DNA from: an archaeon
GTDB lineage: Archaea > Nanobdellota > Nanobdellia > Pacearchaeales > GW2011-AR1
Assembly: GCA_043821585.1 (NCBI GenBank)
Contig: JBDRCQ010000003.1
Coordinates: 9,861-73,860 of the forward strand
Length of the DNA: 64,000 nt
Direction: 5' to 3'
The first letter of the stretch is position 1; every line of letters begins with the position of its first letter. Under the pieces are notes generated by a model. That model searched no databases, had not been told where the DNA came from, and saw only the letters and a program-made list of their open reading frames with translations. Both the position numbers and the translations under genes were made by a program. Positions 14,228 to 35,063 of this stretch are shown piece after piece.

Positions 14228-14757
14228 TTTATCAAAGATACTGCCTCCTTAAGACTTTTAGCCACAAAATCGGCCGCCTCTAAATTCTCATTCCCAATCA
14301 AAATAGTTTTACACTTCCTTTTTCTTCCCATTTCAATGTCGCAGACCGAATCCCCTATAACCCAACTTTCTTCCAAATCAATGTTCAATTCTTTACTTGC
14401 CTTGTCCAACATCCCCGTAAGGGGTTTTCGACAATCGCACTCTCCAGCATCATGGGGACAAAAGTAAATCTTATCTATCCTTCCACCAGCCTCCAAGATT
14501 TCATTCAACATTTTGCCATGTATCTCTTCAAGATCCTCAAGATTCATAAGCCCCTTAGATATGCCTCTCTGGTTAGTTATAATTACAATTTTATAATCTC
14601 TCGCTCCCAACTTGCCAATGCTCTCCTTAACCCCTGGCAAAAACTCAAAATCGCGCCAATTAGTAATATATACGCCTTCAGGAGCCTTTTTATTTATGAC
14701 TCCGTCCCTGTCAAGGAAAACAGCCTTTCTTTTTGATAAACTCAATGTTCCACACAC
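14224..14757 (-). CDS. gmhB: D-glycero-D-manno-heptose 1,7-bisphosphate phosphatase (HAD-IIIA, GmhB-like)
   Basis: 177 aa with FLDRDGVIN (DxDG), ITNQ, the Zn-finger-like insert CPHDAGECDCRKP, and GDS. The start overlaps the upstream fusion gene's stop by 4 nt. Confidence 0.8.
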   Translation of the reverse strand: MCGTLSLSKRKAVFLDRDGVINKKAPEGVYITNWRDFEFLPGVKESIGKLGARDYKIVIITNQRGISKGLMNLEDLEEIHGKMLNEILEAGGRIDKIYFCPHDAGECDCRKPLTGMLDKASKELNIDLEESWVIGDSVCDIEMGRKRKCKTILIGNENLEAADFVAKSLKEAVSLIK

Positions 14758-14879
14758 TCCATGTAATTCAATTCATTAGCGACTTTATAAACAATTTTGT
14801 TATGGGGAATATGCTTGCTAGGCTGAATTCTCCTTCGGAAGGCTACTTCGCAGTAAGCTGCGACGTGATGGGCTTTTCA

Positions 14880-15824: not shown

Positions 15825-15825
15825 T

Positions 15826-20835: not shown

Positions 20836-21741
20836 ATGATCCATATAATCATAACCTCTTACAACGAGCCGAAGGCAACTCTCAGAGCAGTAAAATATTT
20901 TCTAAATCAAAAAATAAAAGACAAGTTCAAGATAATAGTGGTAGATCCATTTCCAGAAGTGGAAAGGTTCCTAAAAAAAGAAATAAAAAACAAGAATGTC
21001 GAATTTTTCCTTGATCCCGGAGAGGGAAAGGGCTACGCGTTAAATCTTCTCTTTCAGGAATACGGAACTGGTGATGAAAATCACTTTTACATCTTGACGG
21101 ACGGAGATGTATATGTCTCGGAAAATGCTGTAGAAGAAATCCTTAAACCCTTTAATGAAAAAAAGGTAGGTTGCGTAACCGGAAGGCCGGTCCAAATAGA
21201 TTCCACTAAATCCAAGTACGAGTACTGGGCAGAAGTCGCATTCAAACGGATTCACCAAGTAAGAAAAAGGATGTCCAAGAACAAGGAGTTTTTCGAATGC
21301 TCTGGTTACTTATTTGCAATTCGCGACGGAGTAATCTTCGACTTTTCAACAAACACTTCTGAAGACAGCATAATTCCATATCTCTTCTGGAAAAAGGGAT
21401 ACAGAATAGTCTACTCCGACAAGGCAGAGGTTTATGTAAAAAACCCAAACAACTGGACAGACTGGTTTAACCAAAAGGTCAGAAATATAAAGGCTCACGA
21501 GAACCTGAACAAAATAGCGCCAGATATGCCCAGAACAAAATCTCTCTTCAATGAAATAAAGGAAGGTGCATTCTTTGCGATACTCCAGCCAAGAAGCCTA
21601 AAAGAATTTTTCTGGATTATCCAATTTTATTTTGCTAGGCTTCATATTTATCTATCAGCGTTCAAGGAATTGAAGACAAAAAAGGCCTATAAAGACGGTT
21701 GGAGAGAGACAGAGATAGAATCAACTAAGCCTCTTGATTAA
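20836..21741 (+). CDS. Glycosyltransferase family 2
   Basis: 301 aa with IIITSYNEP, IIVVDP, and TDGDVY (DxD-like). Confidence 0.65.
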   Translation: MIHIIITSYNEPKATLRAVKYFLNQKIKDKFKIIVVDPFPEVERFLKKEIKNKNVEFFLDPGEGKGYALNLLFQEYGTGDENHFYILTDGDVYVSENAVEEILKPFNEKKVGCVTGRPVQIDSTKSKYEYWAEVAFKRIHQVRKRMSKNKEFFECSGYLFAIRDGVIFDFSTNTSEDSIIPYLFWKKGYRIVYSDKAEVYVKNPNNWTDWFNQKVRNIKAHENLNKIAPDMPRTKSLFNEIKEGAFFAILQPRSLKEFFWIIQFYFARLHIYLSAFKELKTKKAYKDGWRETEIESTKPLD

Positions 21742-22150
21742 ACTGTTTAGCAAATTCCACAAGCTTAGACCCCAATTCTTCTTTGGAATTAACAATTTCC
21801 ATACTTCCGATCAGAATAGCGCTGAGATATTCTAAAGCAGATTCTACTGGTTCATCAGTTTTTATCCCGATTGCAGGGATTCCTCTAGCGTAAGCATAAC
21901 CAAGTTCCCAGGCAGTTCCAGCTCCGACATGTAGCCCATCAAGAACAGCAACAACTAAGTTAACATCCCTAAATCCTTCTTTTATATCCCCTTCAAATAT
22001 CTTGTCCACTTCCTCAATGCTTCCAGCCAACCCAACATCTCTGTGCGGTAAAAACGTCTCGAACCCTGCTGACTTACAAACGGAATCAATCTCTTCTAGG
22101 AACTCCCTTTCGATTTCGTTTCTAATCTTTCCAGCTAGGTATATCTTCAT
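21725..22150 (-). CDS. Nucleoside 2-deoxyribosyltransferase-family protein
   Basis: 141 aa with MKIYLAGKI at the N-terminus and DGLHVGAGTAWELGYAYARGIPAIGI. This matches the family pattern D-x-G-T-x-x-E-x-G-x-A. Confidence 0.6.
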   Translation of the reverse strand: MKIYLAGKIRNEIEREFLEEIDSVCKSAGFETFLPHRDVGLAGSIEEVDKIFEGDIKEGFRDVNLVVAVLDGLHVGAGTAWELGYAYARGIPAIGIKTDEPVESALEYLSAILIGSMEIVNSKEELGSKLVEFAKQFNQEA

Positions 22151-22221: not shown

Positions 22222-23220
22222 ATGAAAATAGTGCTAATCAAACTAGGCGCATTGGGTGACGTAATACGGACTCTTCCTTTAGCTGTTGCCCTAAAAAAGA
22301 GGTTTCCAAAGTCTGAATTAACCTGGATCACAAAACCAAACGCCTTGGAGATAATAAAAACAGACAAAAACATTGACAAGGTTCTAATGTCAAAACCGCA
22401 AGAAGAATTCGATGTATTATATAACTTTGATATAGACAAGGTTGCAACAACAATGGCCTCAGAAATAAAGGCTAAAGAAAAATTCGGATTCTATTCGGAT
22501 AATGGTTACGCCTCTGCATTCAATCTTGGAGCAGAATATTATCTCAATACTTTGTTTGACGATGAGCTAAAAAAATCAAACAAAAAAACATACCAGGAAA
22601 TGATGTTTGAAGTTGCAGAGATCCCCTACGAGAAAAAAAGATATTACATAGATCTAACTCCCGAGGAAGCATCTCTCGGAGAAATTTTCTTAAAACAAAA
22701 TAATCTGGTTGGAAAAAAGATTATAGGGATTCACATAGGTTCTTCACCAAGATGGCCCTCAAAGGCCTGGCACGAAAGTAGGATAAATGAATTCATAAAA
22801 AAAATAAAAGAACAAGGCAATGAGGTAATTCTCTTCGCTGGACCAGACGAAATTGAAAAAAGAGACAAAATCTTAGCGGCCCTAAAATCAGAAGGAATCG
22901 AAGTTCCAACAAACAATCCCCACAATTCAACAAGGGAATTTGCAGCCCTAGTTAACATTTGCAAGGCGATTGTTTGTTCTGACAGTTTTGCTCTTCACCT
23001 CTCTATCGGATTAGAAAAACCAACAGTCGGCCTATTCTTTTGTACTTCTCCAGAGGAGGTAGAACCTTACGACATTCTGACAAAGTTGGTTTCTCCAAAG
23101 TTAAAAGAATTCTTCCCTGAAAAAATGGACCAATACGATGAGGGTCTGGTAAAGAGCATAGACGTTTCAGAGGTTTTAGAAAGAATCAATCAGATTATCC
23201 CACAACAAACACTGAAATGA
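22222..23220 (+). CDS. Glycosyltransferase family 9 (heptosyltransferase-like)
   Basis: 332 aa. MKIVLIKLGALGDVIRTLPLAVALKKRFP matches the GT9 N-terminal LGD motif. The C-terminal half has SDSFALHLSIGL. Confidence 0.7.
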   Translation: MKIVLIKLGALGDVIRTLPLAVALKKRFPKSELTWITKPNALEIIKTDKNIDKVLMSKPQEEFDVLYNFDIDKVATTMASEIKAKEKFGFYSDNGYASAFNLGAEYYLNTLFDDELKKSNKKTYQEMMFEVAEIPYEKKRYYIDLTPEEASLGEIFLKQNNLVGKKIIGIHIGSSPRWPSKAWHESRINEFIKKIKEQGNEVILFAGPDEIEKRDKILAALKSEGIEVPTNNPHNSTREFAALVNICKAIVCSDSFALHLSIGLEKPTVGLFFCTSPEEVEPYDILTKLVSPKLKEFFPEKMDQYDEGLVKSIDVSEVLERINQIIPQQTLK

Positions 23221-23255: not shown

Positions 23256-24902
23256 ATGGATCCGGTTGAAGAAAGAAAACAAAAGATAATCCTCTGGTTA
23301 AAAGACCCTCTAAACCTAATACTCCTTCTTGTCATAATCTTCGGGATAGGTTTTAGGCTTTATTACTTCTCGATAACCACTAGTCAGCCGCTTTGGTGGG
23401 ATGAAGCAGACTACATGGCATATGCAAAAACCTTAGCAGGTTACCCAACCGATTGGAAGGTAACATCTCAACATAATTCGCTATTTCCATTTGCAGCAGG
23501 CGCACTTTTCAAAATTGGGCTATCCGACATAAGTATAAAATTCATCTTAGAGATCATACCCTCCATCGCTCTAATCTTTTTAACATACCATATAGTATTT
23601 CTGATGTACAAAAACAAAAGTCTTGCAATTATCTCAACCATTTTAATGTGTGTATTCTGGGAGAATATTTTTTACACGATGAGGTTCCACTTAGAAGCTC
23701 CAGCCTTACTGTTTGGTTTTCTTTCAATTTATGTTTTCTGGAAGGGTTACGAAAGAAAGGAAAAATTTTTCGGGTTAAATCCCAAATGGGCAATCCCGAT
23801 AACAGTAATTCTAGTTATAATAACTTACATGATCAGGAGAGGGTATTTTCTCTTTGGACTTTTCTTTTTAGTTTATATGCTACTGACAAAAGATTTTAGG
23901 AAATTAATCAAGGACAAATACAATTGGTTTGCCTTAATCATTGCATTCGCCTTGTTGTACATATCTGAAAAATATATCTTTGCTTCAGGTATAGATACTG
24001 TTGCAAGCACATATTATAACCCTGGTCCGATCACATTGCTTGCTTTTCGTGTCTTTTGGGCATTCTACGGGAGCGTTTCTACTCAATTTAGTCCACTATT
24101 GTATGTATTTTTCATCGGAGTTTTTGTCTTACTAGTAAACATTGTTTTAAGCTTTGGATATTGGAAGAAGGACACTTCCACAAAAGTAAGAAGCGACCTT
24201 TTCCTATTCTTGACAATAGCCGTAACCATGGCTTATTTTACATTCTATCAAAAGAGAATAACAGACTTTGGTGAACCAAGATGGTACTACCCTATGTTGC
24301 TTGGCACTTTTGTCGCAATCTCCAGAGCAACTGTCTCAATCGGTGACTACCTTAAAAAATATTACAAACCCTTGGGAATCATATTCATAGTGCTCTTATT
24401 AGGATATGGTTGTTACGATCAAGTAACTCACGCCGATTTTATAATAAAAAATAAAATCGGCTCCTATCAAAGCGTAAAAGACGCAGGGCTATTTTTGAAA
24501 GATATATCTCAAGAAGAAGATGTAATCTCAACAAGGGCCGAAACTCAGACTGCATATTACTCAGAAAGGAGAACCGTTCATCCGCTAGGCATTCTAGATG
24601 ATTACCCAATAGGCTCTGAGAATGCCACGAAGGTTCTGCAAAAAATAGCCGACAATCCAAATATAAACTATTTCTTAGTTCTATTTTCGGAACCAGGAAA
24701 TCCTGATTGGATGGGGAGAATCAGCTACAATGCCCAGGGCCAAGCAGTTTCTATAGAGGTTCCTTTCATGGACACAAGGATAGATGTCTCAACGGGAACT
24801 CAAGATATCAAACAAACTAAGACATTTGAAGATGTGGGCATTTCCCTGAACCTAGTAACAATCAAAGGAGATGTTTTTATTTACGAAGTGATAAGGCAAT
24901 AA
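23256..24902 (+). CDS. GT-C fold membrane glycosyltransferase (PMT_2 / ArnT-like, GT39/GT83)
   Basis: 548 aa with a multi-TM N-terminal block. An acidic first loop (LWWDEADYM) follows TM1. The C-terminal domain is soluble. Confidence 0.6.
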   Translation: MDPVEERKQKIILWLKDPLNLILLLVIIFGIGFRLYYFSITTSQPLWWDEADYMAYAKTLAGYPTDWKVTSQHNSLFPFAAGALFKIGLSDISIKFILEIIPSIALIFLTYHIVFLMYKNKSLAIISTILMCVFWENIFYTMRFHLEAPALLFGFLSIYVFWKGYERKEKFFGLNPKWAIPITVILVIITYMIRRGYFLFGLFFLVYMLLTKDFRKLIKDKYNWFALIIAFALLYISEKYIFASGIDTVASTYYNPGPITLLAFRVFWAFYGSVSTQFSPLLYVFFIGVFVLLVNIVLSFGYWKKDTSTKVRSDLFLFLTIAVTMAYFTFYQKRITDFGEPRWYYPMLLGTFVAISRATVSIGDYLKKYYKPLGIIFIVLLLGYGCYDQVTHADFIIKNKIGSYQSVKDAGLFLKDISQEEDVISTRAETQTAYYSERRTVHPLGILDDYPIGSENATKVLQKIADNPNINYFLVLFSEPGNPDWMGRISYNAQGQAVSIEVPFMDTRIDVSTGTQDIKQTKTFEDVGISLNLVTIKGDVFIYEVIRQ

Positions 24903-24941: not shown

Positions 24942-26069
24942 TTAGTCCCTAAATCTCTCAGATTTCTTAGGCAAAAATACTGAGGGATCAAATCTCTGAG
25001 GGGCCCCCTTCACCAAATTAAGGTCATAATCCATCATTTCCTTAACAAGATCGCTAAACTTATAGTCCTGAGACCATCCTAACTCTTTCTTGGCTTTGTT
25101 AGCATCACCCACCAGTGCCTCAACCTCAGTGGGCCTAAAATAATACGGGTCTACTTCAACATAAACCTTGCCATTTTGGGGATCATAACCGACCTCGTTA
25201 ACCCCTTCGCCCCTCCAAGCAATGTCTATCCCAACATGCTTAAATGCAATCTCAACGAACTCCCTCACAGAATGATTTGCCCCTGAAGCAATAACGTAAT
25301 CGTCTGGTTTCTCCGCCTGCAGAATAAGCCACATTGCCTTAGCGGAGTCCTTCGCATGACTCCAATCCCTCTTTGCATTCAAATTTCCGAGATATATCTT
25401 CTCAGACAACCCTGCATTAATGTCCGCAACGCCTTTAGTTATTTTTCTCGTCACAAAATTCTCACCGCGCCTAGGCGATTCCGTATTGAAAACAATTCCA
25501 TTAGAACAAAACATATTGTAGGCTTCCCTGTAATGCTTAATGATCCAATAACCGTAAAGTTTAGCAACGCCATACGGGCTTCTTGGATGAAACGGAGTAT
25601 TTTCATTCAGCAAGGCATTTCCCAAAACCCCTCCATAAAGCTCAGAAGTCGAAGCCTGGTAAACCCTCACTGGCTTTTTCAGTCTTCTAGCAGCTTCCAA
25701 TATCCTCAAAACGCCCAAGGCATTTGTGTTTGAGGTATGTTCGGGTGTATGAAATGATATCCAAACATGGGACTGGGCAGCAAGATTATAAATTTCATCA
25801 GGTTGTATATCAGAAACTATCCTTTCAATAATCCCAGAATCCTGTAAGTCTCCATAAAACAAGTTCAAACCCTTTATATGGTCTATCCTCTGTCTAGCGC
25901 CCTCTATCCTTGAGGTTCTTCTTATTATCCCATACACTTCATATCCTTTATCGACTAAAAGCTCGGCGAGATAACTCCCAATCTGGCCGGTAATCCCAGT
26001 TATCAGAGCTCTTTTCTTCCATGAGCTCGAATTAGCTAAATGATCTGCTTGATTCACTTTCACCCCCAT
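24942..26069 (-). CDS. gmd: GDP-mannose 4,6-dehydratase
   Basis: 375 aa with ITGITGQIGSYLAELL, YQASTSELYG (catalytic T-x-E), SPYGVAKLY (YxxxK), NHESPRRG, and NLNAKRDWSHAKD. Collinear with E. coli Gmd. Confidence 0.9.
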   Translation of the reverse strand: MGVKVNQADHLANSSSWKKRALITGITGQIGSYLAELLVDKGYEVYGIIRRTSRIEGARQRIDHIKGLNLFYGDLQDSGIIERIVSDIQPDEIYNLAAQSHVWISFHTPEHTSNTNALGVLRILEAARRLKKPVRVYQASTSELYGGVLGNALLNENTPFHPRSPYGVAKLYGYWIIKHYREAYNMFCSNGIVFNTESPRRGENFVTRKITKGVADINAGLSEKIYLGNLNAKRDWSHAKDSAKAMWLILQAEKPDDYVIASGANHSVREFVEIAFKHVGIDIAWRGEGVNEVGYDPQNGKVYVEVDPYYFRPTEVEALVGDANKAKKELGWSQDYKFSDLVKEMMDYDLNLVKGAPQRFDPSVFLPKKSERFRD

Positions 26070-27108
26070 AAAATTCTTTTATTTTAATGACAATAAAGTC
26101 TATATCTTGCTCATTCAGACTAGGATATGTTGGAATATAAATTCCATTGTATCCATATTTAGCAGCTTTTAAACTTCTCCAGGATTCATCATAATACATA
26201 GGTTGCCGACTCATTGGCTTGAAAAACTGTCTTGTTTCTATGCCTTGCTCTTCTAAGAATTCCTGCAATTTCTGTCTGTTATCAACCAAGACATCATAAA
26301 ACCAGACAACATCTCTCTTAGGCAACAAAGTCACGCCCCGAACATCTTTCAGTTTTTCATCATACCAAGATTCGATCTGTTTTCTTTTCTTAAGGAATGA
26401 ATCTATCCTTTCTGTTTGTGCCAATGCAATGGCTGCTTGCATATTGGTCATCCTAAAATTATAAGCAATTTTTTTATGTATAAAATCGTGCTGTGGCGTA
26501 AATGCCATTGCCCTAAGATGAACCATCTGCTCTGCCAGGTTTTTATCATTTGTAATACAGATCCCTCCTTCGCCAGAGGAAATTATTTTATTCCCAAACA
26601 AGGAGAAGCACGCAATATGCCCCCTTGGTCTTACGCCATGCGCTTCAGCCGAATCTTCAACAATCTTAAGATTATAATTATACGCAATGTCCAATATTGC
26701 GTCCATATCACATTGTCTTCCATAAATATGGACTGGAATTATTGCCTTGGTTTTTTCAGTTATCTTCCCCTCAATTAAACTAACATCAATATTCAGATCA
26801 TCTTTGCAGTCTACAAAAACAGGTTTTGCCCCAGTGTATGAAACTGCCCACGCGCTTGCAATCATTGTAAACTCCGGCACAATCACTTCATCTCCTGGAC
26901 CAATACCCAACGCCCTAAGGGCAAGAGTCAACGCAGCAGTTCCAGAAGAACAAGCGACGCCATGTTTTATGCCATTCCATGACGCAAATGCATCTTCAAA
27001 TTTTTTAACAAATGGTCCTTGAGATGAGATCCAACCTGTTTTGATAGCTTCAGTTACATAATCCAGCTCATTGCCGTCCAAATCAGGTTTTGAAACAGAA
27101 TATCTCAT
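26032..27108 (-). CDS. per: DegT/DnrJ/EryC1 PLP-dependent sugar aminotransferase, GDP-perosamine synthase-like
   Basis: 358 aa. KPDLDGNELDYVTEAIKTGWISSQGPFVKKFE resembles the Per/RfbE N-terminus. A PLP-lysine motif (SLFGNKIISSGEGG) is present, and the gene lies directly upstream of gmd. Confidence 0.75.
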   Translation of the reverse strand: MRYSVSKPDLDGNELDYVTEAIKTGWISSQGPFVKKFEDAFASWNGIKHGVACSSGTAALTLALRALGIGPGDEVIVPEFTMIASAWAVSYTGAKPVFVDCKDDLNIDVSLIEGKITEKTKAIIPVHIYGRQCDMDAILDIAYNYNLKIVEDSAEAHGVRPRGHIACFSLFGNKIISSGEGGICITNDKNLAEQMVHLRAMAFTPQHDFIHKKIAYNFRMTNMQAAIALAQTERIDSFLKKRKQIESWYDEKLKDVRGVTLLPKRDVVWFYDVLVDNRQKLQEFLEEQGIETRQFFKPMSRQPMYYDESWRSLKAAKYGYNGIYIPTYPSLNEQDIDFIVIKIKEFYGGESESSRSFS

Positions 27109-29360
27109 CTTTTGATCTCAGAATCAACTTCTTTTAAATCGTGCTTAACCATTAGCCCCACAAGATCCCTAAATCTGACCCCCGGACTAAAACCAAATGC
27201 CTGTCTAGCCTTGCTGGTATCTCCAATTAGCGGATCTGTTTTGCTGGGCCTGAAGAATCTTGGATCAACCCCAACGCACTCCCTTCCAGTATTTTTATCA
27301 TAGCCTACCTGCTCAAGACCATCACCCTTCCATAAAATTTCAACCCCTATGTGTTTAAATGCTTCCTCAACAAACTCCCTGACTGTATGCTGCTCGCCTG
27401 TGCAAATAATAAAATCATCAGGCTTTGTCAGTTGCAGAATGTTCCATGAAGCCTTCACATAATCTTCAGAATAACCAAAGTCTATTCCCAAGTCTATAAA
27501 ACCAAGATACAATTTATCTTGCAATCCTTTTGATATCCGCGCGACAGCCCTTGTTATCTTTCTTGTTACATATTCCTCATTCCGCCTGGGAGATTCGTGA
27601 TTGTAAAAAATGGCCGTTGAAGCAAATAATCCAAAGACATCCCGATAGTATCTCATTAAATGAAAAGCATACGCCTTTGCACAGGCATAAGGGCTTTGTG
27701 GCCTTAACCCAGTCTCTTCGGTCTGAATCCCATCTAGAGTTTTACCGAAGATATTTGAAGAAACAGGTTGAAAAAACTTTATCTTGGGATTAACTTGTTT
27801 TATAATTTCCAGAATCCTTCCAACAGCCGCACCGGTAATATCTGAAGAGTAGTCTACAGAATCGTAACTCCACCTAACATGGTCTTGGTCGGCAAAATTG
27901 TAAAGCTCGTCAGGATTCACAGATGAAATTGTCCTATACAATGAAGTTGAATCAGCTAAGTCCCCTTGGTGAATATTTATTTTATCAATTAAATGTTTTA
28001 TGTTTTTCGTATTGCCAGTAGAAGATCTTCTTATGAATCCATGAACTTCATAACCTTTCTCCAGCAAGAGCTCTGCCATGTAGCTTCCATCCTGCCCGGT
28101 AACGCCCAAGATAAGTGCCTTTTTCTTTCTCCCGCCAGTATCTGAATCTCCCGAAAGGGTTTGTTCTCCCCAGCCATAAATCTCAACTTTTGGTGTACAA
28201 AAAATGAACTTACCCCCTTCTTTCAGCCAGGATTGCTCTCTTTTTATGAAGCTATCCTTGAACGCATATGGCAACACTAAAAAATAATCTGCTTTTTTCT
28301 TCGCCTCTTCTTCTTCGAGGATGGGGATATGCGTCCCCACAGTCATCTTACCAATTTTTTCGGGATGGATCTCTGCAATGCCATTTATAGAATCTTTGCC
28401 CAGCCCGTAATATTGAAGGATTGTATTCCCCTTTGTCGAAGCGCCATAAGCATAGACACTCTTGCCTTCCTTTAGAATACTATTTATTAAATCAACACAT
28501 TCCTTTTTATTCTGATCCATTCTCTTAGCAAGTTCAAGATAGGATTCTTTCGTTATATCTTCTGGATAATCAACACTCCCATTTTTGTAATGCCTAGCAA
28601 ACACCCTATAACTTCCACCATTTATTGAATTCTCCTCAACCTTAAAGATCTCCAATCCATTTTTCTCGAACAAATACTTCAACGAGCTATATGAGTAATA
28701 CTCTAAATGTTCATGGCAAATATTTCCAATGTCATTTTTTTCAAGCATTGGCTTTGATGTCATAAGTTGAGCAACAAAAACACCATCTTCTGCGAGGGCC
28801 TTTGCAGAGTCTCTAATAAACTGTCCCGGATCATCCATGTCATAAAACATTCCAATCGCAGTAATTATCTTGGCCTTTCTGTCTGAAAACATATAACCAT
28901 ATCGGTTATAGTCCCAAAAGTCATCAATAACAATATTGCAATGTTTTTTCAGTTCCGGAACAAGATTCAGCGCAGGTTCGCAACCAATCCTCCTCAGATG
29001 GTCGGGGTAGAATTTTAATAGGGTGCCATCATTGGCCCCAATATCCAAAACAATGTCATCTCTCTTCAAGGGAACCATTTTTTGTGCAGCCTCCGTTATC
29101 TCCTTCAGATCATCTATGATTACCTTGTTTAAGTTGGACCTATACCAATAATGTCTTGAGTACATAAGCTCCTGAGGGGCCGTGTGCTTCAGTTGAACAA
29201 GGCTACAATTATTACACCACACTAGATGTAGGGGGGCCTTTCCTATGTTTTCGCCCTCTTTTTCCACAAATGTCGAGAGATACAAATCTCCTAAGCCAAA
29301 CAAACCCACTAAATCAGTAGAACCACATACCCTGCATTTAGTAATCTCCCTAGTCAGCAT
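27105..29360 (-). CDS. Fusion protein: sugar C-methyltransferase (Zn-ribbon + class I MT + C-MT C-terminal domain) + Gmd-like extended SDR domain
   Basis: 751 aa. Residues 1 to about 405 carry CRVCGS ... CNNCSLVQL (zinc ribbon), DIGANDG (motif I), and a TylC3-type C-terminal region. After a short linker (GDSDTGGRKKK) comes a Gmd-like domain with ILGVTGQDGSYMAELL, SPYACAKAY and NHESPRRN. In that domain the Gmd T-S-E reads S-S-N. Confidence 0.8.
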   Translation of the reverse strand: MLTREITKCRVCGSTDLVGLFGLGDLYLSTFVEKEGENIGKAPLHLVWCNNCSLVQLKHTAPQELMYSRHYWYRSNLNKVIIDDLKEITEAAQKMVPLKRDDIVLDIGANDGTLLKFYPDHLRRIGCEPALNLVPELKKHCNIVIDDFWDYNRYGYMFSDRKAKIITAIGMFYDMDDPGQFIRDSAKALAEDGVFVAQLMTSKPMLEKNDIGNICHEHLEYYSYSSLKYLFEKNGLEIFKVEENSINGGSYRVFARHYKNGSVDYPEDITKESYLELAKRMDQNKKECVDLINSILKEGKSVYAYGASTKGNTILQYYGLGKDSINGIAEIHPEKIGKMTVGTHIPILEEEEAKKKADYFLVLPYAFKDSFIKREQSWLKEGGKFIFCTPKVEIYGWGEQTLSGDSDTGGRKKKALILGVTGQDGSYMAELLLEKGYEVHGFIRRSSTGNTKNIKHLIDKINIHQGDLADSTSLYRTISSVNPDELYNFADQDHVRWSYDSVDYSSDITGAAVGRILEIIKQVNPKIKFFQPVSSNIFGKTLDGIQTEETGLRPQSPYACAKAYAFHLMRYYRDVFGLFASTAIFYNHESPRRNEEYVTRKITRAVARISKGLQDKLYLGFIDLGIDFGYSEDYVKASWNILQLTKPDDFIICTGEQHTVREFVEEAFKHIGVEILWKGDGLEQVGYDKNTGRECVGVDPRFFRPSKTDPLIGDTSKARQAFGFSPGVRFRDLVGLMVKHDLKEVDSEIKR

Positions 29361-29452: not shown

Positions 29453-29977
29453 ATGAACGAACTCTTCGAATGTAATCTAGAGGAAGAAAAAGGTACGGAC
29501 CTTTCAAAACTAGAATCGGGGAATCTCCCTCTTGAAGATTACGTGGCGGCCCATAAAAACATGATTGTTCCCTGTCACGACATATTTATTCAATATAATG
29601 GGGGAATACTTCTGGTAAGGAGAGATAACCAACCGATGAGGGATACAATCTGGCCTATCGGAGGCAGGATACAAAGAGGAGTAAAAACAGAGGACTCTCT
29701 AAGGCTAAAGGTAAAACAAGAGACAAGGCTCGATATAACAGACATAACCTTCCTGGGTTCTGCAAGAATTTTCATGCACACCGAACCCTTCGGTCACGGA
29801 AAAGGGACAGATAACACTGCCTTTGTTTTTTTTGCAGTTGGTAACGGAAATTTAAAGTTGGACAATCTTCACAAGGACCCGATGATAGTAATGCCTTCTG
29901 AATATCCAAGATTAAGGCCAGAGCTACACCCTTACGTGAAAAAATTTATGGATGGAGCAATAAAGTTGGTGAAATAA
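29453..29977 (+). CDS. NUDIX-fold-like protein with degenerate Nudix box
   Basis: 174 aa. GGRIQRGVKTEDSLRLKVKQETRL loosely fits G-x5-E-x7-REUxEExGU. It is divergently transcribed from the C-MT fusion gene. Confidence 0.45.
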   Translation: MNELFECNLEEEKGTDLSKLESGNLPLEDYVAAHKNMIVPCHDIFIQYNGGILLVRRDNQPMRDTIWPIGGRIQRGVKTEDSLRLKVKQETRLDITDITFLGSARIFMHTEPFGHGKGTDNTAFVFFAVGNGNLKLDNLHKDPMIVMPSEYPRLRPELHPYVKKFMDGAIKLVK

Positions 29978-31238: not shown

Positions 31239-32045
31239 TTATTGTCTCTTTTCAATAATCCCCACCAGCAACCCATTTGCATACATATAGGGTGAACCAA
31301 ATTTGATTCCTTTTGCTTCTTCGCGAGAAATTTCTTCCCAAAAATTATTTGCGCTCATTCTTTTCAAGTAATGTTCTTTTGTAAAATTTATCTTGCCTTC
31401 CTCAATCAATTCCATCAATCTCGGGTGATAATCTAACGGAACGGTGACAACAGCCCTCCCGCCCCCTCTCAACAACTTCTTTAATTTATTCACAGCAAAA
31501 ACTATCTTATCAAAATCTTTCGGAGACTCGTCAATTCCAACATGTTCCAATGTAGAGATGCTCACAATTAGATCATACTTTTTTTTCGGGTTAAAGTTGA
31601 TGATATCCTCATTAATGACTCCCTTGATCTTCTCGTATTTATCCACCCTCTGAAAGCTTTTAGGGAAATCAGAAAAATAATAAGATAGCACATTTCCAAC
31701 CTCCAATACTTCCTTATTCCAATTCTCCTTCACTTCCGACCAAACAATCGGAATTTCGATACTCCTTTCATTCATCCAAGTTGTATTAAAAAAGTGATCG
31801 AAATATTTCATCTTTTTTTTACCAAAATTGAAGGTCTTTGGTCGAGAAATTGCACGGAATGGATAAATCAATGTAAACGCCATCCATGAAAAACCTCGTT
31901 TTGCGACGACCGCCCACCCCTCCTCTCCACCGACCTCTTTCACACGAGAAATAAAGTTTTTTAGTACAGGCATTTCCAAAAAACAAGAACGTTGTTTAAA
32001 TATCTTTCTGGGCTGGCTAAACACTGCCACTTTCAATTCCAACAA
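31239..32045 (-). CDS. Putative methyltransferase-fold protein (degenerate motif I)
   Basis: 268 aa with VLEVGNV in place of motif I, DLIVSISTLEHVG, and GGGRAVVTVP. The assignment is weak. Confidence 0.4.
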   Translation of the reverse strand: MLELKVAVFSQPRKIFKQRSCFLEMPVLKNFISRVKEVGGEEGWAVVAKRGFSWMAFTLIYPFRAISRPKTFNFGKKKMKYFDHFFNTTWMNERSIEIPIVWSEVKENWNKEVLEVGNVLSYYFSDFPKSFQRVDKYEKIKGVINEDIINFNPKKKYDLIVSISTLEHVGIDESPKDFDKIVFAVNKLKKLLRGGGRAVVTVPLDYHPRLMELIEEGKINFTKEHYLKRMSANNFWEEISREEAKGIKFGSPYMYANGLLVGIIEKRQ

Positions 32046-32502
32046 TCACTTTAGAAAGATATCCTTTTAGCTTATTCAAATTCTCCTTGTCTATACTGGC
32101 AATCTTGTTATAATCCTTCAATAGTTCTGGGGTCAACTCTGCCATGTCATAAATCGCCTTTATCCCTGTTTTTTTAGAAAAAAACTCAGCAAATTCTGCT
32201 TGATGATCATTGAAATGTTCTTTGTATTTAGAAAGCCGAGGTGTTATGATCAATGGTTTCTTATATTTGTGAGCAAACTCCCAGACGCTTGAACCCCCGT
32301 GAGCAATAACGACCCGAGCCTCTTTATAAAATTCATTAATATTCGGGATAAATTCATGACTTTCATAATTCTTCGGGCGATACTTTGTTGGCCCCCTTTG
32401 CACGATTAATTTTTCATTTAATTTCGGGGCAATCTCATCTAATCTCCTCAAAAGTCTGTCAAAGTTCATACTGCGATGTGTTCCAATAGTCACAAAAATC
32501 AT
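32017..32502 (-). CDS. Alg13-like glycosyltransferase catalytic subunit (Glyco_tran_28_C)
   Basis: 161 aa with MIFVTIGTH ... FDRLL at the N-terminus and HGGSSVWE. It overlaps the Alg14-like gene by 4 nt. Confidence 0.7.
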   Translation of the reverse strand: MIFVTIGTHRSMNFDRLLRRLDEIAPKLNEKLIVQRGPTKYRPKNYESHEFIPNINEFYKEARVVIAHGGSSVWEFAHKYKKPLIITPRLSKYKEHFNDHQAEFAEFFSKKTGIKAIYDMAELTPELLKDYNKIASIDKENLNKLKGYLSKVIVGIESGSV

Positions 32503-32948
32503 ACTATCCCTCCGACATATCTCGCCCTTTTCCCATAATGCTTCTCCATTCCAGGAATTTGCACAAGGAAAATATCAGAAAATGGATATGATAGTTTTCC
32601 AGCCCAGGTCGGAGTTTTTACTCTGATTATCGTGTCAATGAATATTGTTTTTATCCCCAACAGCTTCCCGGCAATCATCCCGACTAGCCCAATATCTGCA
32701 CCAGTAGTTATAACCACAGAGGGTTTTTCCCTTTTGAATATAAGAAGACATTTCAGTATAGCATACGGATAATTAAATGGATTATACCCCACCTCCTTAA
32801 AAAAATATTTCTTTCCAGGCAGTTTTTCAGTTTTAGGATTTCTTTCGGTGAAGTAAATTGCCTCGTTATTTCCAATTACTTCTTCAGAAAAAATTGTCCT
32901 AGCCTGGGTCAAATGGCCTCCCTCAGAAGCAACCAAAGCAATTTTCAT
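32499..32948 (-). CDS. Alg14-like glycosyltransferase accessory subunit
   Basis: 149 aa with KIALVASEGGHLTQ (Alg14 GGH motif) and VITTGADIG. Confidence 0.7.
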   Translation of the reverse strand: MKIALVASEGGHLTQARTIFSEEVIGNNEAIYFTERNPKTEKLPGKKYFFKEVGYNPFNYPYAILKCLLIFKREKPSVVITTGADIGLVGMIAGKLLGIKTIFIDTIIRVKTPTWAGKLSYPFSDIFLVQIPGMEKHYGKRARYVGGIV

Positions 32949-32953
32949 TTAAT

Positions 32954-33736
32954 TCAAAAGCCCCCCATCTTTTTAAGTCTATGATAGTAACTCACAATCG
33001 GCCTGAGCCAGGAATTTATGAGCCTCAACCTAACAACTCCAAGGGCCATTCCTGGCCCTGCTTTCCAAAAATTAATCGTAGCGTACTCTTTGTCTTCCCA
33101 AAAGGTGGGTAGTTCTTTAATTCTAAAACTTTTCTTTCTCGCCGTGTATAAAAGGTCTACATCAAATGCCCATTGAGACATCGTCAATTTGGGGAGTATT
33201 TCTTCAAGGGCCCTCTTTCTAAAAATTTTAGCACCGCATTGGGTATCTCTAAAGGGCATGAGCAAAAGAGATCTAACAAGAACATTGAAGACCCACTTAG
33301 CCAAAAGCCTTTGCACTTTCGGTTTTGGTTTAATTACAGACCCCTTCATATACCTACTTGCAATAGTCACATCATACGCCTTGTTCTCCCCCATGAATCT
33401 TATAAGTTTCCAATATTCTTCGGGAAGTGTGGCCATATCAGCATCAACAAAACCGATTAAATCATTGTTTCTCTTCAGGGCATCTTTGAATCCCTCAATT
33501 GTTGCGAAGCCCTTCCCACTAGGTGTCAAGTTCAGGAAGAGGATTCTACTATTATTTTGTGAACAAGTCTTAACAATCTCCTCTGTTTTGTCAGTAGTTC
33601 CATTTATAACAACCAATATTTCGTAATCTAATTTACCCCTTTTTCTTAATCCCTCAAAATAGCTCGAATATCCTTCAAGGGTCTTTCTTATCCGCCTTTC
33701 TTCGTTATACGCGGGCATGATCATAGAAACCTTCAT
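32954..33736 (-). CDS. Polyprenyl/dolichyl-phosphate hexose synthase (GT2; Alg5/Dpm1/GtrB-like)
   Basis: 260 aa with MIMPAYNEE, VDADMA (DxD), and RDTQCGAKIF (compare DTQCGFK in Dol-P-Glc synthases). Confidence 0.75.
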   Translation of the reverse strand: MKVSMIMPAYNEERRIRKTLEGYSSYFEGLRKRGKLDYEILVVINGTTDKTEEIVKTCSQNNSRILFLNLTPSGKGFATIEGFKDALKRNNDLIGFVDADMATLPEEYWKLIRFMGENKAYDVTIASRYMKGSVIKPKPKVQRLLAKWVFNVLVRSLLLMPFRDTQCGAKIFRKRALEEILPKLTMSQWAFDVDLLYTARKKSFRIKELPTFWEDKEYATINFWKAGPGMALGVVRLRLINSWLRPIVSYYHRLKKMGGF

Positions 33737-33886
33737 TTCCTTAGGGAGATTTAAAGGTATAAAAATTTAATTGGCCTGCGTTCTTTATAAAATATGATTT
33801 GCCTTAGTTTAGTCTTGTGTTAAGAACGGTCTCAATAACGCTCGATCAATCGAAACTTATTTAAACCTCTCGCCCAACAAACTGCA

Positions 33887-34888: not shown

Positions 34889-35063
34889 GGGGGAATCCAA
34901 GCAAGACTGCACAAAACAAGAGCAAATTTTTTAGTACCTTTTCAATAATTCTCTTCATTTGCTCAGACACTTATCCCATTTCATTAGGATTGAATTTTTA
35001 GATAATATTCTTTTAAAGCGAGAGGATTAATTTTTGATAAGCCAAAAAATAGACAGTAGCCAC

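What the first reader, a model, noticed from the sequence alone, without database searches (positions are those of the whole stretch)
27105..29360. C-methyltransferase fused to a Gmd-like domain that has lost the dehydratase catalytic Glu
Residues 1 to about 405 form a complete TylC3-type NDP-4-keto-sugar C-methyltransferase: a zinc ribbon (CRVCGS...CNNCS), motif I (DIGANDG), and the C-terminal C-MT domain. Residues from about 424 to 751 are collinear with Gmd (ILGVTGQDGSYMAELL, SPYACAKAY, NHESPRRN). Where Gmd has Y-Q-A-S-T-S-E-L-Y-G, this domain has F-Q-P-V-S-S-N-I-F-G (Asn codon at 27753-27755, complement). Where Gmd has G-N-x-D-x-x-R-D-W-G-H-A-K-D-Y-V, this domain has G-F-I-D-L-G-I-D-F-G-Y-S-E-D-Y-V. 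The bona fide Gmd 1 kb away keeps both motifs. In Gmd, that Glu is the base for the 5,6-dehydration step. A Ser/Tyr/Lys-only Gmd-like SDR is what one expects for a 4-ketoreductase (Rmd-like). The fusion therefore looks like a two-step module. The separate Gmd would make GDP-4-keto-6-deoxy-mannose (or heptose), the C-MT domain would methylate next to the keto group, and the fused SDR would reduce C4. The product would be a GDP-linked branched-chain 6-deoxy sugar, comparable to the evalose/virenose-type sugars proposed to arise from GDP-mannose in bacteria. I am not aware of this domain fusion being described.
Basis: partly seen in the sequence, partly recalled or inferred. Interest (0 to 1): 0.7.

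Follow-up and report, generated by a model that had tools for sequence, protein, structure and literature searches.

The report
Methyltransferase fused to glutamate-less Gmd paralogue
An archaeal protein-glycosylation locus encodes a sugar C-methyltransferase fused to a GDP-mannose-dehydratase look-alike that has lost its dehydrating residue; this look-alike is a widespread, uncharacterised and mis-annotated enzyme family that almost always travels with the methyltransferase and a perosamine-synthase-like aminotransferase.

Summary
ORF 27105-29360(-) encodes 751 aa: an intact TylC3/TcaB9-type C-methyltransferase, a 12-residue disordered linker, and a Gmd-fold SDR in which the dehydratase Glu is Asn536 (codon 27753-27755).

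It is not an assembly artefact or a decaying domain. The Glu-less SDR ("SDR*") is a monophyletic Gmd offshoot, as conserved as Gmd itself. It keeps the NADP site, Ser/Tyr/Lys and four of six GDP contacts, and has a remodelled, more acidic pocket.

SDR* occurs fused or as a separate gene in DPANN archaea, CPR bacteria, SAR11 and many other phyla. The C-MT lies directly upstream in 85% of loci. SDR* co-varies with a GDP-perosamine-synthase-like aminotransferase (28/31 vs 3/22 loci), and often with a Gmm-like NUDIX, a small cupin and a true Gmd.

In aminotransferase-less loci, the gene after the C-MT is always a reductase-type SDR. A redox-neutral oxidise-methylate-reduce cycle on an amino sugar is not excluded.

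No paper describing the family was found in the open-access library searched. Verdict: new variant of a known kind; interest 0.6.

The parts
27105..29360 (-). Whole ORF, 751 aa: C-methyltransferase fused to a Glu-less Gmd paralogue (SDR*)
   Evidence: An identical protein, P0001, comes from a 94-kb 'MAG: archaeon' contig. AF2 mean pLDDT is 86.9.
28167..29360 (-). C-methyltransferase module, residues 1-398 (TylC3/TcaB9/MtmC type)
   Evidence: Pfam PF08421+PF13489+PF08484. PDB MtmC 4rv9 2e-44 and TcaB9 2e-30. Foldseek TM 0.87-0.89.
29160..29336 (-). Zinc ribbon, residues 9-67 (C9, C12, C49, C52)
   Evidence: PF08421. All four Cys are invariant in 27 family members.
28707..28721 (-). ICHEH motif, residues 214-218. 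E217/H218 align with the TcaB9 E224/H225 catalytic pair.
   Evidence: Alignment. Invariant H216 E217 H218. The motif is shared by all GDP-type C-MT subfamilies.
28131..28166 (-). Flexible interdomain linker, residues 399-410 (EQTLSGDSDTGG)
   Evidence: pLDDT is below 50 only at 399-410. pTM 0.55 means the relative domain orientation is undefined.
27108..28130 (-). SDR* domain, residues 411-751: Gmd fold with no dehydratase Glu
   Evidence: PF16363 9e-107. TIGR01472 386 bits, below the 415 cut-off. GMD structures 4e-94. Foldseek TM 0.92-0.95 at 44-46% identity.
27753..27755 (-). Asn536 codon (AAT), at the position of the Gmd catalytic Glu (human E157)
   Evidence: The position is Asn in 85% of the family, otherwise Thr or His.
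27675..27689 (-). YACAK, residues 558-562: catalytic Tyr and Lys retained
   Evidence: Y179 and K183 (human numbering) are conserved at 90% or more in both Gmd and SDR*. Tyr is kept in 87/89 and Lys in all.
27879..27893 (-). ADQDH, residues 490-494: family-specific acidic motif replacing Gmd GAQSH
   Evidence: A110D in 100% and S112D in 98% of SDR*. This motif seeded the independent metagenome scan.
27471..27485 (-). IDFGY, residues 626-630: replaces Gmd RDWGH and loses a GDP-phosphate Arg (P. aeruginosa R218)
   Evidence: The GDP-contact list comes from PMC9415975.
27240..27251 (-). RPSK, residues 704-707: replaces Gmd RPxE and loses the GDP-contacting Glu (P. aeruginosa E282)
26032..27108 (-). 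DegT-family aminotransferase, GDP-perosamine-synthase-like. Its start overlaps the fusion's stop by 4 nt.
   Evidence: PDB 3BN1 8.6e-91 with the catalytic Lys aligned; ColD only 1e-21. Co-varies with SDR*, 28/31 vs 3/22 loci.
24942..26069 (-). Bona fide GDP-mannose 4,6-dehydratase. The listed ORF overlaps the aminotransferase's 3' end by 38 nt.
   Evidence: TIGR01472 477 bits, above the 415 cut-off. STSE, YxxxK, RDW and RPTEV are all present.
29453..29977 (+). Divergent NUDIX protein, divergently transcribed from the fusion
   Evidence: PF00293 3e-05. Orthologues in other loci hit the GDP-mannose mannosyl hydrolase family at 3e-16. Found in 19/31 SDR*+ loci against 2/22 SDR*- loci.
22222..23220 (+). 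GT9-family glycosyltransferase, a candidate transferase for the product
   Evidence: PF01075. A GT9 gene lies directly downstream of the fusion in two other loci and near a class B fusion.

Best explanation
The ORF is a two-enzyme module of a conserved GDP-sugar cassette.

**Proposed pathway**
1. [quoted passage not shown]
2. The N-terminal TylC3-type domain C-methylates next to the 4-keto group, using SAM.
3. The C-terminal domain (SDR*) transfers hydride at C4, most likely an NADPH-dependent 4-ketoreduction of the methylated intermediate. SDR* is a Gmd duplicate that kept the NADP(H) site and Ser/Tyr/Lys but lost the Glu needed for 5,6-elimination, so it can no longer dehydrate.
4. The product would be a GDP-linked C-branched 6-deoxyhexose, used by the GT9, GT4 and GT2 enzymes of this AglB-type glycosylation locus.

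**Shown**
- The architecture, the intact catalytic motifs of both halves and the loss of Glu.
- Family-wide conservation, linkage to the C-MT and the GDP-type context.

**Inferred**
- The direction of the redox step.
- The methylated carbon (C3 by analogy).
- How the co-inherited perosamine-synthase-like aminotransferase fits in. It could act as a parallel branch from the same 4-keto intermediate, or within the same linear pathway.
For: 1. Both halves are intact. Zn ribbon, SAM motif and E-H pair; G30/G33/G36, R55, S156, Y179, K183, N208, H209, S211, R214, K222 and R325 conserved in 89 SDR*.
2. The Glu that is GMD's only extra acid/base (PMC8987622; PMC3584063) is N, T or H throughout the family.
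3. SDR* is under Gmd-like purifying selection, with 61% mean identity against 59% for Gmd, and forms a clean clade (50/50 and 200/200 bootstraps). It is an enzyme, not a relic.
4. Positional analogy. In 20 or more aminotransferase-less loci the gene right after the C-MT is a reductase-type SDR. These are Rmd-like with FNHTGPGQ, or Gmd-like forms that independently lost Glu and often the RDW Arg. The class B fusion Gmd-C-MT is directly followed by a 304-aa SDR of that kind.
5. In a scan seeded on an SDR*-only motif, the C-MT lies within 2.3 kb upstream in 47/55 loci.
6. The NADP-type R-(R/K)-S motif is kept. This argues for a reductase or a non-exchanging cofactor rather than net oxidation.
7. 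Some GMDs already show 4-reductase side activity (PMC3539893).
8. The context is GDP-type: true Gmd in the operon, perosamine-synthase-like AT and Gmm-like NUDIX.
Against: 1. A terminal 4-ketoreductase does not explain why SDR* almost never occurs without the aminotransferase (28/31 vs 3/22).
2. It also does not explain the existence of AT-C-MT, AT-NUDIX and C-MT-cupin fusions. A C4 aminotransferase and a C4 reductase would compete for the same carbonyl.
3. A few loci have NUDIX-SDR*-AT with no C-MT (L111, L132, L129, L197).
4. SDR* keeps a Gmd-like RR-loop, which in Gmd encloses a non-exchanging cofactor.
5. Its pocket became markedly more acidic (L108E, A110D, S112D, R64N, R176Q, R247 to I/V). 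This fits an amino-sugar substrate better than a neutral keto sugar.
6. SDR* is not sister to the other Glu-less reductase-slot SDRs (X+Y1 clade in 0/200 bootstraps). The reductase inference therefore rests on analogy, not homology.
7. No activity has been measured.
Confidence: 0.45

Rival explanations
1. Redox-neutral 'oxidise-methylate-reduce' cycle on an amino sugar.
1. Gmd plus the aminotransferase first make a GDP-3-amino-3,6-dideoxyhexose (mycosamine-type). The 3,4-keto isomerisation is spontaneous, AT-assisted, or catalysed by the small cupin where present.
2. SDR*, with a tightly bound NADP+ as in Gmd, re-oxidises C4.
3. The fused C-MT methylates C3 of the 3-amino-4-keto sugar, the substrate type of TcaB9, KijD1 and EvaC.
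4. SDR* returns the hydride to C4.
For: This gives every universal member (Gmd, AT, C-MT, SDR*) a place in one linear pathway. It explains:
- the AT co-variation
- the fusions AT-C-MT, C-MT-SDR* and C-MT-cupin
- the Gmd ancestry and the retained RR-loop and NADP motif
- the loss of Glu, because a 6-deoxy substrate must not be enolised or dehydrated
- the acidified pocket and the loss of two Arg residues
- the need for a separate intact Gmd in the same operon
Against: - There is no precedent for an SDR lending its keto intermediate to a partner methyltransferase.
- The AT is most similar to a C4-specific enzyme (3BN1).
- The cupin is absent from the window.
- The class B fusion Gmd-C-MT followed by NUDIX and AT (L006) implies that C-MTs of this superfamily take the Gmd product directly.
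- Loci with SDR*+AT but no C-MT would need a different role for SDR*.
Confidence: 0.2
2. Non-dehydrating C4 dehydrogenase. SDR* oxidises GDP-mannose (or GDP-heptose) at C4 but cannot eliminate water. It thereby supplies a 6-hydroxy 4-keto sugar to the C-MT and then to the aminotransferase, as an oxidation-transamination pair. This would be functionally like Campylobacter Cj1427.
For: - It gives a linear order SDR* -> C-MT -> AT that fits the fusions and the SDR*-AT co-variation.
- NUDIX-SDR*-AT sits among GDP-heptose-type genes, without C-MT or Gmd, in L111 and L132.
- Cj1427 is a precedent for C4 oxidation of a GDP-sugar without dehydration (PMC10680097).
- The window also has GT9 genes and an NTP-transferase/GHMP-kinase fusion.
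Against: - A true Gmd is frequently in the same operon, directly next to SDR* or the AT (the window; L107, L110, L134, L154, L178, L179 and others). That would be redundant.
- The cofactor motif is NADP-type, whereas the sugar-nucleotide dehydrogenases I recall (from memory) use NAD+ or need a recycling oxidant.
- SDR* has no detectable specific similarity to Cj1427, which is not among PDB hits at E<=1e-10.
Confidence: 0.1
3. Non-catalytic Gmd-like domain. SDR* would act as a docking or channelling subunit that hetero-oligomerises with the true Gmd and hands the labile 4-keto sugar to the C-MT.
For: - The key catalytic Glu and two GDP contacts are lost.
- Opposite-order fusions of an intact Gmd to the C-MT exist (class B), which shows that physical coupling of Gmd and C-MT is selected.
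- A true Gmd is often adjacent.
Against: - The active site is not decayed. It is strictly conserved in a new state (D110 100%, P153 100%, N64 100%, D112 98%), and Tyr, Lys, Ser and the cofactor motifs are kept.
- The family is as conserved as Gmd.
- About half of SDR* loci have no Gmd within 10 kb.
Confidence: 0.1
4. GDP-linked counterpart of the epivancosamine (EvaA-E) pathway:
- NUDIX = 2,3-dehydratase
- AT = C3 aminotransferase
- C-MT = C3 methyltransferase
- cupin = 5-epimerase
- SDR* = 4-ketoreductase

The product would be a GDP-3-amino-2,3,6-trideoxy-3-C-methylhexose.
For: - The cassette matches EvaA-E fold for fold (Nudix, DegT, TylC3-type, cupin, SDR). Sugar 2,3-dehydratases belong to the Nudix superfamily (PMC8987622).
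- NUDIX, AT and cupin all co-vary with SDR*.
- It would explain the acidic pocket and the C-MT-less NUDIX-SDR*-AT loci.
Against: - The NUDIX proteins are small and Gmm-like, with a near-canonical hydrolase box. They are not Hexose_dehydrat-type.
- NUDIX is undetectable in 12/31 well-flanked SDR* loci.
- The window's own NUDIX is very divergent and transcribed separately.
Confidence: 0.08

Closest known systems
[quoted passage not shown]
   Same: - Same fold (TM 0.92-0.95) at 44-46% identity.
- Glycine-rich and R-R/K-S NADP motifs, the Ser/Thr-Tyr-Lys triad and NHESPRR are all kept.
- Four of six GDP contacts are kept.
- Direct phylogenetic sister or offshoot of Gmd.
   Different: - The catalytic Glu is Asn.
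- The GDP contacts R218 and E282 (P. aeruginosa numbering) are replaced by I/V and K/N/T.
- New conserved acidic residues are present (E108, D110, D112 in human numbering), plus R64N and A153P.
- It scores below the equivalog cut-off.
- It is nearly always paired or fused with a C-methyltransferase.
Human GMD E157Q variant (PDB 6GPK)
   Same: It carries the equivalent loss of the carboxylate at the same position, on the same fold. It is among the top structural matches.
   Different: It is an engineered single mutant deposited with unconverted GDP-Man bound. SDR* is a natural family with about 18 further conserved substitutions and a partner enzyme.
[quoted passage not shown]
   Same: - The proposed chemistry is the same: NADPH reduction of a GDP-4-keto-6-deoxyhexose.
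- It has the Ser/Tyr/Lys triad without a dehydratase base.
- Rmd-like genes occupy the same slot after the C-MT in other loci.
   Different: - It is only distantly related (1.5e-19, 22% identity).
- The Rmd signature FNHxGPGQ is absent.
- SDR* arose independently from Gmd.
TylC3/TcaB9/KijD1/MtmC NDP-hexose C-methyltransferases, and the proposed GDP route to virenose in Coxiella (Gmd + TylCIII-like C-MT + reductase)
   Same: - The N-terminal half has all three domains, the zinc site and the catalytic E-H pair.
- The pathway logic is the same: 4,6-dehydratase, then C-MT, then reductase.
   Different: - The characterised enzymes use dTDP-sugars and are stand-alone.
- This enzyme sits in a GDP context and is fused to the SDR.
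- It belongs to a distinct subfamily (D[LVI]GN instead of S[FY]DT before ICHEH).
- It is accompanied by an aminotransferase.
Cj1427, GDP-heptose C4-dehydrogenase of Campylobacter jejuni
   Same: It is an SDR that oxidises C4 of a GDP-sugar without dehydration and holds its cofactor tightly. This is a conceptual precedent for a non-dehydrating Gmd-like enzyme.
   Different: It has no close sequence relationship to SDR*, uses NAD rather than NADP, needs alpha-ketoglutarate recycling, and has no methyltransferase partner.

Membership tests
GDP-mannose 4,6-dehydratase (EC 4.2.1.47; TIGR01472) | Extended-SDR fold with GxxGxxG and an NADP-type RR motif | tested here: met
   PF16363 9e-107. Foldseek TM 0.92-0.95 to GMD structures. 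G30/G33/G36 and R55 conserved.
GDP-mannose 4,6-dehydratase (EC 4.2.1.47; TIGR01472) | Fingerprint [ST]-S-E...Y-x3-K, with the Glu as the dehydration acid/base (PMC8987622) | tested here: not met
   The sequence is S-S-N536...Y558-x3-K562. The position is N, T or H across the family.
GDP-mannose 4,6-dehydratase (EC 4.2.1.47; TIGR01472) | Scores above the curated equivalog cut-off | tested here: not met
   386.2 bits against a cut-off of 415. The stand-alone SDR* of L032 scores 379.9, and the neighbouring true Gmd scores 477.1.
GDP-mannose 4,6-dehydratase (EC 4.2.1.47; TIGR01472) | Conserved GDP-contact residues V190, N179, K193, R218, R279, E282 (P. aeruginosa numbering; PMC9415975) | tested here: not met
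   N, V, K and R279 are kept. R218 is replaced by I/V/L, and E282 by K/N/T.
GDP-mannose 4,6-dehydratase (EC 4.2.1.47; TIGR01472) | [quoted passage not shown] | not testable with these tools
   This needs an enzyme assay.
[quoted passage not shown] | Closer in sequence to Rmd than to Gmd, with the FNHxGPGQ-type motif | tested here: not met
   2pk3 scores 1.5e-19 against 4e-94 for GMD. The motif here is YNHESPRRN. Rmd-like SDRs group away from SDR*.
[quoted passage not shown] | Ser/Thr-Tyr-Lys triad with no dehydratase base, and an exchangeable NADPH | tested here: inconclusive
   The triad is present and the base absent. Cofactor exchange cannot be judged from sequence, and the Gmd-like RR-loop is retained.
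TylC3/TcaB9-type NDP-hexose C-methyltransferases | N-terminal four-Cys zinc ribbon (PF08421) | tested here: met
   C9, C12, C49 and C52 are invariant.
TylC3/TcaB9-type NDP-hexose C-methyltransferases | Class I SAM-binding core plus the C-terminal Methyltransf_14 domain | tested here: met
   PF13489 4e-14 and PF08484 1.7e-32. Full-length alignment to MtmC and TcaB9. TM 0.87-0.89.
TylC3/TcaB9-type NDP-hexose C-methyltransferases | Catalytic Glu-His pair (TcaB9 E224/H225) | tested here: met
   E217 and H218 align with it and are invariant.
TylC3/TcaB9-type NDP-hexose C-methyltransferases | SAM-dependent methylation of the carbon next to a 4-keto group, and its regiochemistry | not testable with these tools
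   This needs an assay and NMR.
EvaA-E-type 3-amino-3-C-methyl sugar pathway | A dedicated NDP-hexose 2,3-dehydratase of the EvaA type | tested here: not met
   The NUDIX partners are about 150 aa and Gmm-like (NF011963, 3e-16) with a near-canonical Nudix box. They are missing from 12/31 SDR* loci.

The most novel reading that the evidence does not exclude
SDR* may be a new kind of 'carbonyl-lending' enzyme. It would be a Gmd descendant that keeps NADP+ bound and transiently oxidises C4 of an already aminated GDP-6-deoxyhexose. It would let the fused or adjacent C-methyltransferase alkylate the neighbouring carbon, then give the hydride back. The net reaction would be a cofactor-neutral C-methylation of a finished amino sugar. 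The product would be a GDP-linked 3-amino-3,6-dideoxy-3-C-methylhexose not yet described in any glycan, made by abundant uncultured lineages (DPANN, CPR) and by SAR11.
Probability: 0.18. Interest if true: 0.85.

Novelty: new variant of a known kind. Interest (0 to 1): 0.6.

Why it matters
**Annotation.** A coherent, widely distributed enzyme family is currently labelled 'GDP-mannose 4,6-dehydratase' in NCBI and JGI records, yet it lacks the residue that makes a Gmd a dehydratase. Pathway reconstructions for DPANN archaea, CPR bacteria, SAR11 and many other groups therefore mis-assign it.

**Biochemistry.** The family marks a conserved cassette (C-MT, SDR*, perosamine-synthase-like AT, with or without a Gmm-like NUDIX, a small metal-type cupin and Gmd). 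This cassette should make a GDP-linked C-branched sugar, probably an amino sugar. I know of no biochemically established GDP-dependent C-methylation route; the virenose route is only an in-silico proposal (PMC3539893).

**Enzyme evolution.** It is a clean natural example of a dehydratase neofunctionalised by losing one catalytic residue and remodelling its pocket.

**Experimental access.** The fusion protein gives an experimentally convenient, self-contained two-step module, and Pelagibacter genomes, one of them a complete chromosome, carry the unfused version.

Tried and rejected
**Rejected**
1. Assembly artefact. The same C-MT->SDR* architecture is found in more than 40 independent clusters from five data sources and in genome bins.
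2. Mis-alignment hiding a Glu. Ungapped HMMER alignments to five GMD structures and a 148-sequence MAFFT alignment agree.
3. ColD/E1-like 3-dehydratase role for the DegT protein. The catalytic Lys is present, and 3BN1 scores 9e-91 against 1e-21 for ColD.
4. Decaying pseudo-domain. Conservation equals that of Gmd, and the active site is fixed in a new state.

**Tested, with limited or negative outcome**
5. EvaA-type dehydratase role for the NUDIX. Weakened: the proteins are Gmm-like with a near-canonical box and are not universal.
6. Common origin of SDR* with the other Glu-less SDRs that follow C-MTs. Not supported (0/200 bootstraps), so the ketoreductase inference rests on analogy only.
7. 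Residue differences between C-MT subfamilies, as a clue to an amino against a hydroxyl substituent. The ICHEH motif is identical everywhere. Only the preceding D[LVI]GN vs S[FY]DT differs, and this is uninterpretable.
8. Representative search at 50% clustering. SDR* collapses into about 6 representatives, so it is of little use for counting.

**Could not be done**
Its profile found nothing meaningful in the PDB, and only a sub-threshold WbuC-family match.
10. King et al. 2009 (GMD/RMD structures) is not held. Residue roles were taken from secondary sources.
11. Literature searches for the fusion, for GDP-dependent C-methylation or for a 3-C-methyl-perosamine found only the Coxiella virenose proposals.

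Full report

Yes. The minus-strand ORF 27105..29360 is uninterrupted and encodes 751 residues. Pfam finds four domains:
- Methyltransf_13, the zinc ribbon (residues 9-67)
- Methyltransf_23 (89-238)
- Methyltransf_14 (270-390)
- GDP_Man_Dehyd (416-736, E = 9e-107)

The N-terminal half aligns end to end with the solved C-methyltransferases MtmC (4rv9, 2e-44) and TcaB9 (2e-30). E217/H218 lie opposite the TcaB9 E224/H225 pair.

The C-terminal half aligns without gaps to solved GMDs (7kf3 at 4e-94; human 6gpj and 6gpk). FQPVSSNIFG lies opposite YQASTSELYG, IDFGY opposite RDWGH, ADQDHV opposite GAQSHV, and RPSK opposite RPxE.

The gene two positions downstream (24942..26069) is a true Gmd. It scores 477 bits against the NCBIfam equivalog cut-off of 415, whereas the fused domain scores 386.

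An AlphaFold2 model built on 27 homologues is confident for both halves, with mean pLDDT 86.9. A disordered linker spans residues 399-410, and the inter-domain geometry is undefined (pTM 0.55). Foldseek matches the C-terminal half to GMD structures at TM 0.92-0.95, including the engineered E157Q variant. It matches the N-terminal half to MtmC, TcaB9 and KijD1 at TM 0.87-0.89.

**2. It is a family, not an accident.**

The identical protein exists in a 94-kb 'MAG: archaeon' contig. More than 40 further clusters, at 52-75% identity, share the C-MT->SDR order.

A second group of about 770-800-aa proteins has the opposite order, Gmd->C-MT. Its SDR half keeps every Gmd motif: SSE, RDWG and RPTEV.

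I call the Glu-less domain SDR*. I compared 89 SDR* with 59 Gmd sequences (human GMD numbering).

Residues conserved in both families:
- the Rossmann glycines and R55
- S156, Y179 and K183
- N208, H209, S211 and R214
- K222, D248 and R325-P326

Changes conserved within SDR*:
- E157 -> N in 85%, otherwise T or H
- A153 -> P (100%) and Y151 -> F
- L108 -> E, A110 -> D (100%) and S112 -> D (98%)
- R64 -> N (100%) and R176 -> Q
- R247 -> I/V/L, and E328 -> K/N/T

A review lists the GDP-contacting residues of GMD as V190, N179, K193, R218, R279 and E282 (PMC9415975). SDR* keeps four of these and replaces R218 and E282.

The Glu is described as GMD's only additional acid/base (PMC8987622) and as the base that removes the C5 proton (PMC3584063).

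SDR* is monophyletic, in 50/50 and 200/200 bootstraps. It is sister to or nested in Gmd (192/200). Its mean internal identity is 61%, against 59% for Gmd. A domain decaying after loss of function would not look like this.

**3. The real unit is a gene cassette.**

*C-MT-seeded scan.* A scan of one genome per species seeded on the C-MT returned SDR* loci from many groups:
- Nanoarchaeia, Woesearchaeota, Iainarchaeum and Micrarchaeaceae
- Peribacteria
- Pelagibacter (SAR11, including a complete genome)
- delta-proteobacteria, Planctomycetes, Omnitrophota, Nitrospinota, Spirochaetota and others

In most of these, C-MT and SDR* are separate adjacent genes, often in the order cupin - aminotransferase - C-MT - NUDIX - SDR* - GT2 - Wzy-like - PMT_2.

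*SDR*-seeded scan.* A second scan was seeded only on the SDR*-specific motif YNEADQDH and is independent of the C-MT. Among 55 non-redundant loci with enough upstream sequence:
- the C-MT lay within 2.3 kb upstream in 47
- it lay downstream in 2
- it was absent in 6

*Co-variation.* In 53 well-flanked C-MT loci, three partners co-vary with SDR*:

| Partner | SDR*-positive loci | SDR*-negative loci | p |
|---|---|---|---|
| DegT aminotransferase | 28/31 | 3/22 | 1.5e-8 |
| Small cupin | 21/31 | 1/22 | 2.7e-6 |
| NUDIX | 19/31 | 2/22 | 1.5e-4 |

Neither NUDIX nor the cupin is universal: 12 loci have both, 7 have NUDIX only, 9 have the cupin only, and 3 have neither. A true Gmd lies within 10 kb in about 40% of loci, and is often the next gene in the operon.

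*Observed fusions among cassette members*:
- C-MT-SDR*
- C-MT-NUDIX
- a 1102-aa protein (P0033) with C-MT, NUDIX and SDR* domains
- C-MT-cupin
- AT-C-MT
- AT-NUDIX

*What the partners are.*
- The window's aminotransferase is a GDP-perosamine-synthase homologue. It matches 3BN1 at 8.6e-91, with the Schiff-base Lys aligned. ColD scores only 1e-21, so it is not a 3-dehydratase.
- The cassette's NUDIX proteins score best against the GDP-mannose mannosyl hydrolase family (3e-16, below cut-off). They keep a nearly canonical Nudix box. The window's own copy is much more divergent.
- The cupin has HxH...E...H metal-type motifs and only a sub-threshold WbuC-family match. It is absent from the window.

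All of this points to GDP-linked chemistry.

**4. The window's setting.**

The fusion, the aminotransferase and Gmd are consecutive minus-strand genes. The fusion's stop overlaps the aminotransferase's start by 4 nt, and the aminotransferase ORF overlaps the listed Gmd ORF by 38 nt. They lie inside an archaeal protein-glycosylation locus that contains:
- AglB/STT3 (37282-39978)
- an Alg7-like GT (36266-37282)
- a flippase
- Alg13 and Alg14
- GT2, GT4 and GT25 genes, and two GT9 genes
- several methyltransferases and radical-SAM enzymes
- a second nucleotide-sugar gene set: an NTP-transferase-CBS-GHMP-kinase fusion, a HAD phosphatase and two further SDRs at 12194-16794

**5. What does SDR* do?**

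The sequence shows that it cannot use the Gmd elimination mechanism, but it keeps everything needed for hydride transfer at C4 with NADP(H).

The strongest functional clue is positional. In loci without the aminotransferase, the gene directly after a GDP-type C-MT is always a reductase-type SDR. These are either Rmd-like (FNHTGPGQ, SSxxVYG) or other Gmd-like proteins that have independently lost the Glu (to H, L, R, Q or K) and often the RDW Arg. A class B Gmd-C-MT fusion is immediately followed by one of these. In those pathways ketoreduction is the only step left, so 'the SDR after the C-MT' is the 4-ketoreductase slot, and SDR* occupies it.

Two further points agree with a ketoreductase:
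- The NADP-type motif is retained.
- Some GMDs have a known 4-reductase side activity (PMC3539893).

I put it at about 0.45 rather than higher, for four reasons:
1. SDR* is not related by descent to the other slot-fillers (0/200 bootstraps).
2. A terminal reductase leaves the near-obligatory aminotransferase and the AT-C-MT fusion unexplained.
3. The pocket has gained three acidic residues and lost two or three basic ones, as if the substrate carried an amino group.
4. A Gmd-like RR-loop, which in Gmd encloses a non-exchanging cofactor, is retained.

**6. Rivals.**

*Redox-neutral cycle, about 0.2.* Gmd and the aminotransferase make a 3-amino-3,6-dideoxyhexose. SDR* re-oxidises C4, the C-MT methylates C3, and SDR* returns the hydride. 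This uses every universal member and explains the four points above. Against it:
- It has no precedent.
- It needs C3 regiochemistry from an enzyme most similar to a C4 aminotransferase.
- It is contradicted in spirit by the Gmd-C-MT fusions followed by NUDIX and AT.

*Non-dehydrating C4 dehydrogenase feeding the aminotransferase, about 0.1.* This is analogous to Cj1427 (PMC10680097). It fits the C-MT-less NUDIX-SDR*-AT loci embedded among GDP-heptose genes. It leaves the co-operonic Gmd redundant and conflicts with the NADP-type motif.

*Non-catalytic docking role, about 0.1.* The fixed, non-degenerate active site argues against this.

*GDP analogue of the EvaA-E pathway, under 0.1.* This is attractive at the fold level, but the NUDIX is Gmm-like and missing from 39% of loci.

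**7. Novelty.**

Full-text searches for the fusion, for GDP-dependent C-methylation and for related sugars returned only the in-silico virenose proposals for Coxiella. Public records name these proteins 'GDP-mannose 4,6-dehydratase'. The library covers open-access papers only, so an undetected description is possible.

Both halves belong to known superfamilies, and the likely chemistry is known in kind. What is new is threefold:
- a neofunctionalised Gmd lineage
- its obligate partnership with a C-MT and a perosamine-synthase-like aminotransferase
- the implied GDP-linked branched, probably amino, sugar in very abundant uncultured lineages

I therefore rate it as a new variant of a known kind, with interest 0.6.

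Noticed in passing
window 12194-16794 (-): A second nucleotide-sugar gene set: a 677-aa NTP-transferase-CBS-GHMP-kinase fusion (12194-14227), a HAD phosphatase (14224-14757) and two further extended SDRs (14880-15824 and 15826-16794). It resembles GDP-heptose-type synthesis (HddC, HddA, GmhB). No SIS isomerase (GmhA) was seen among the ORFs scanned.
   Followed up: partly
window 6568-7725 (+) and 22222-23220 (+): Two GT9 (heptosyltransferase-family) genes in an archaeal genome fragment. GT9 genes also sit directly next to the fusion in other loci. As far as I recall, characterised GT9 enzymes use ADP-heptose, so their donor here is an open question.
   Followed up: partly
window 32017-39978 (-): A complete-looking archaeal N-glycosylation core: AglB/STT3 (898 aa), a Glycos_transf_4 (Alg7-like), a Polysacc_synt flippase, GT2, and split Alg14 and Alg13.
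   Followed up: no
window 24942-26069 (-): The 'bona fide' Gmd passes the equivalog cut-off but has unusual substitutions in otherwise invariant motifs: GQIG for GQDG, NTES for NHES, and RDWSHAKDSA for RDWGHAKDYV. P0089 shares them.
   Followed up: no
window 21725-22150 (-) and 23256-24902 (+): A nucleoside 2-deoxyribosyltransferase-like protein (141 aa) and a 548-aa protein with no Pfam match. Both are embedded between the glycosyltransferases and Gmd.
   Followed up: no
P0058-P0101; L004 8001-10313; L006 8001-10400: Opposite-order fusions of an intact Gmd to a C-MT (about 770-800 aa). These are apparently true bifunctional dehydratase/C-methyltransferases. They are followed either by a Glu-less reductase-type SDR or by NUDIX plus an aminotransferase.
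   Followed up: partly
P0069, P0077, P0095, P0098, P0100, P0116; L013 5703-8006: Inteins inserted in C-MT homologues and in a cassette aminotransferase, shown by Intein_splicing, HINT and homing-endonuclease domains.
   Followed up: no
L032 8443-8853 and about 29 other loci; C-terminus of P0047-P0057: A conserved cupin of about 138 aa with HxH...E...GGHG motifs. It has only a sub-threshold WbuC-family match, lies directly upstream of the aminotransferase, or is fused to the C-MT. Its function is unknown: an epimerase or a keto-isomerase are both possible.
   Followed up: partly
L058, L060, L068, L075, L080 (Anabaena), L082, L083: the SDR directly after the C-MT: A reductase-slot SDR subgroup in which the Glu position is Leu and the catalytic YxxxK reads YxxxR.
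   Followed up: no
L111 and L132 (marine metagenomes); L097: SDR* without a C-MT. In L111 and L132, NUDIX-SDR*-aminotransferase sits among GDP-heptose-type genes. L097 has an orphan SDR* next to a GNAT and a HAD hydrolase.
   Followed up: partly
P0089 (594 aa, fragment): A Methyltransf_14 C-terminal domain followed by an intact, Glu-containing Gmd that is 66% identical to the window's Gmd. This is a C-MT->true Gmd fusion in the same order as the SDR* fusions.
   Followed up: no
window 10123-11457 (-), 17712-18761 (-), 33887-34888 (+): One B12-binding radical-SAM enzyme and two radical-SAM/SPASM enzymes lie inside the glycosylation locus. Similar genes flank the cassette in other loci.
   Followed up: no
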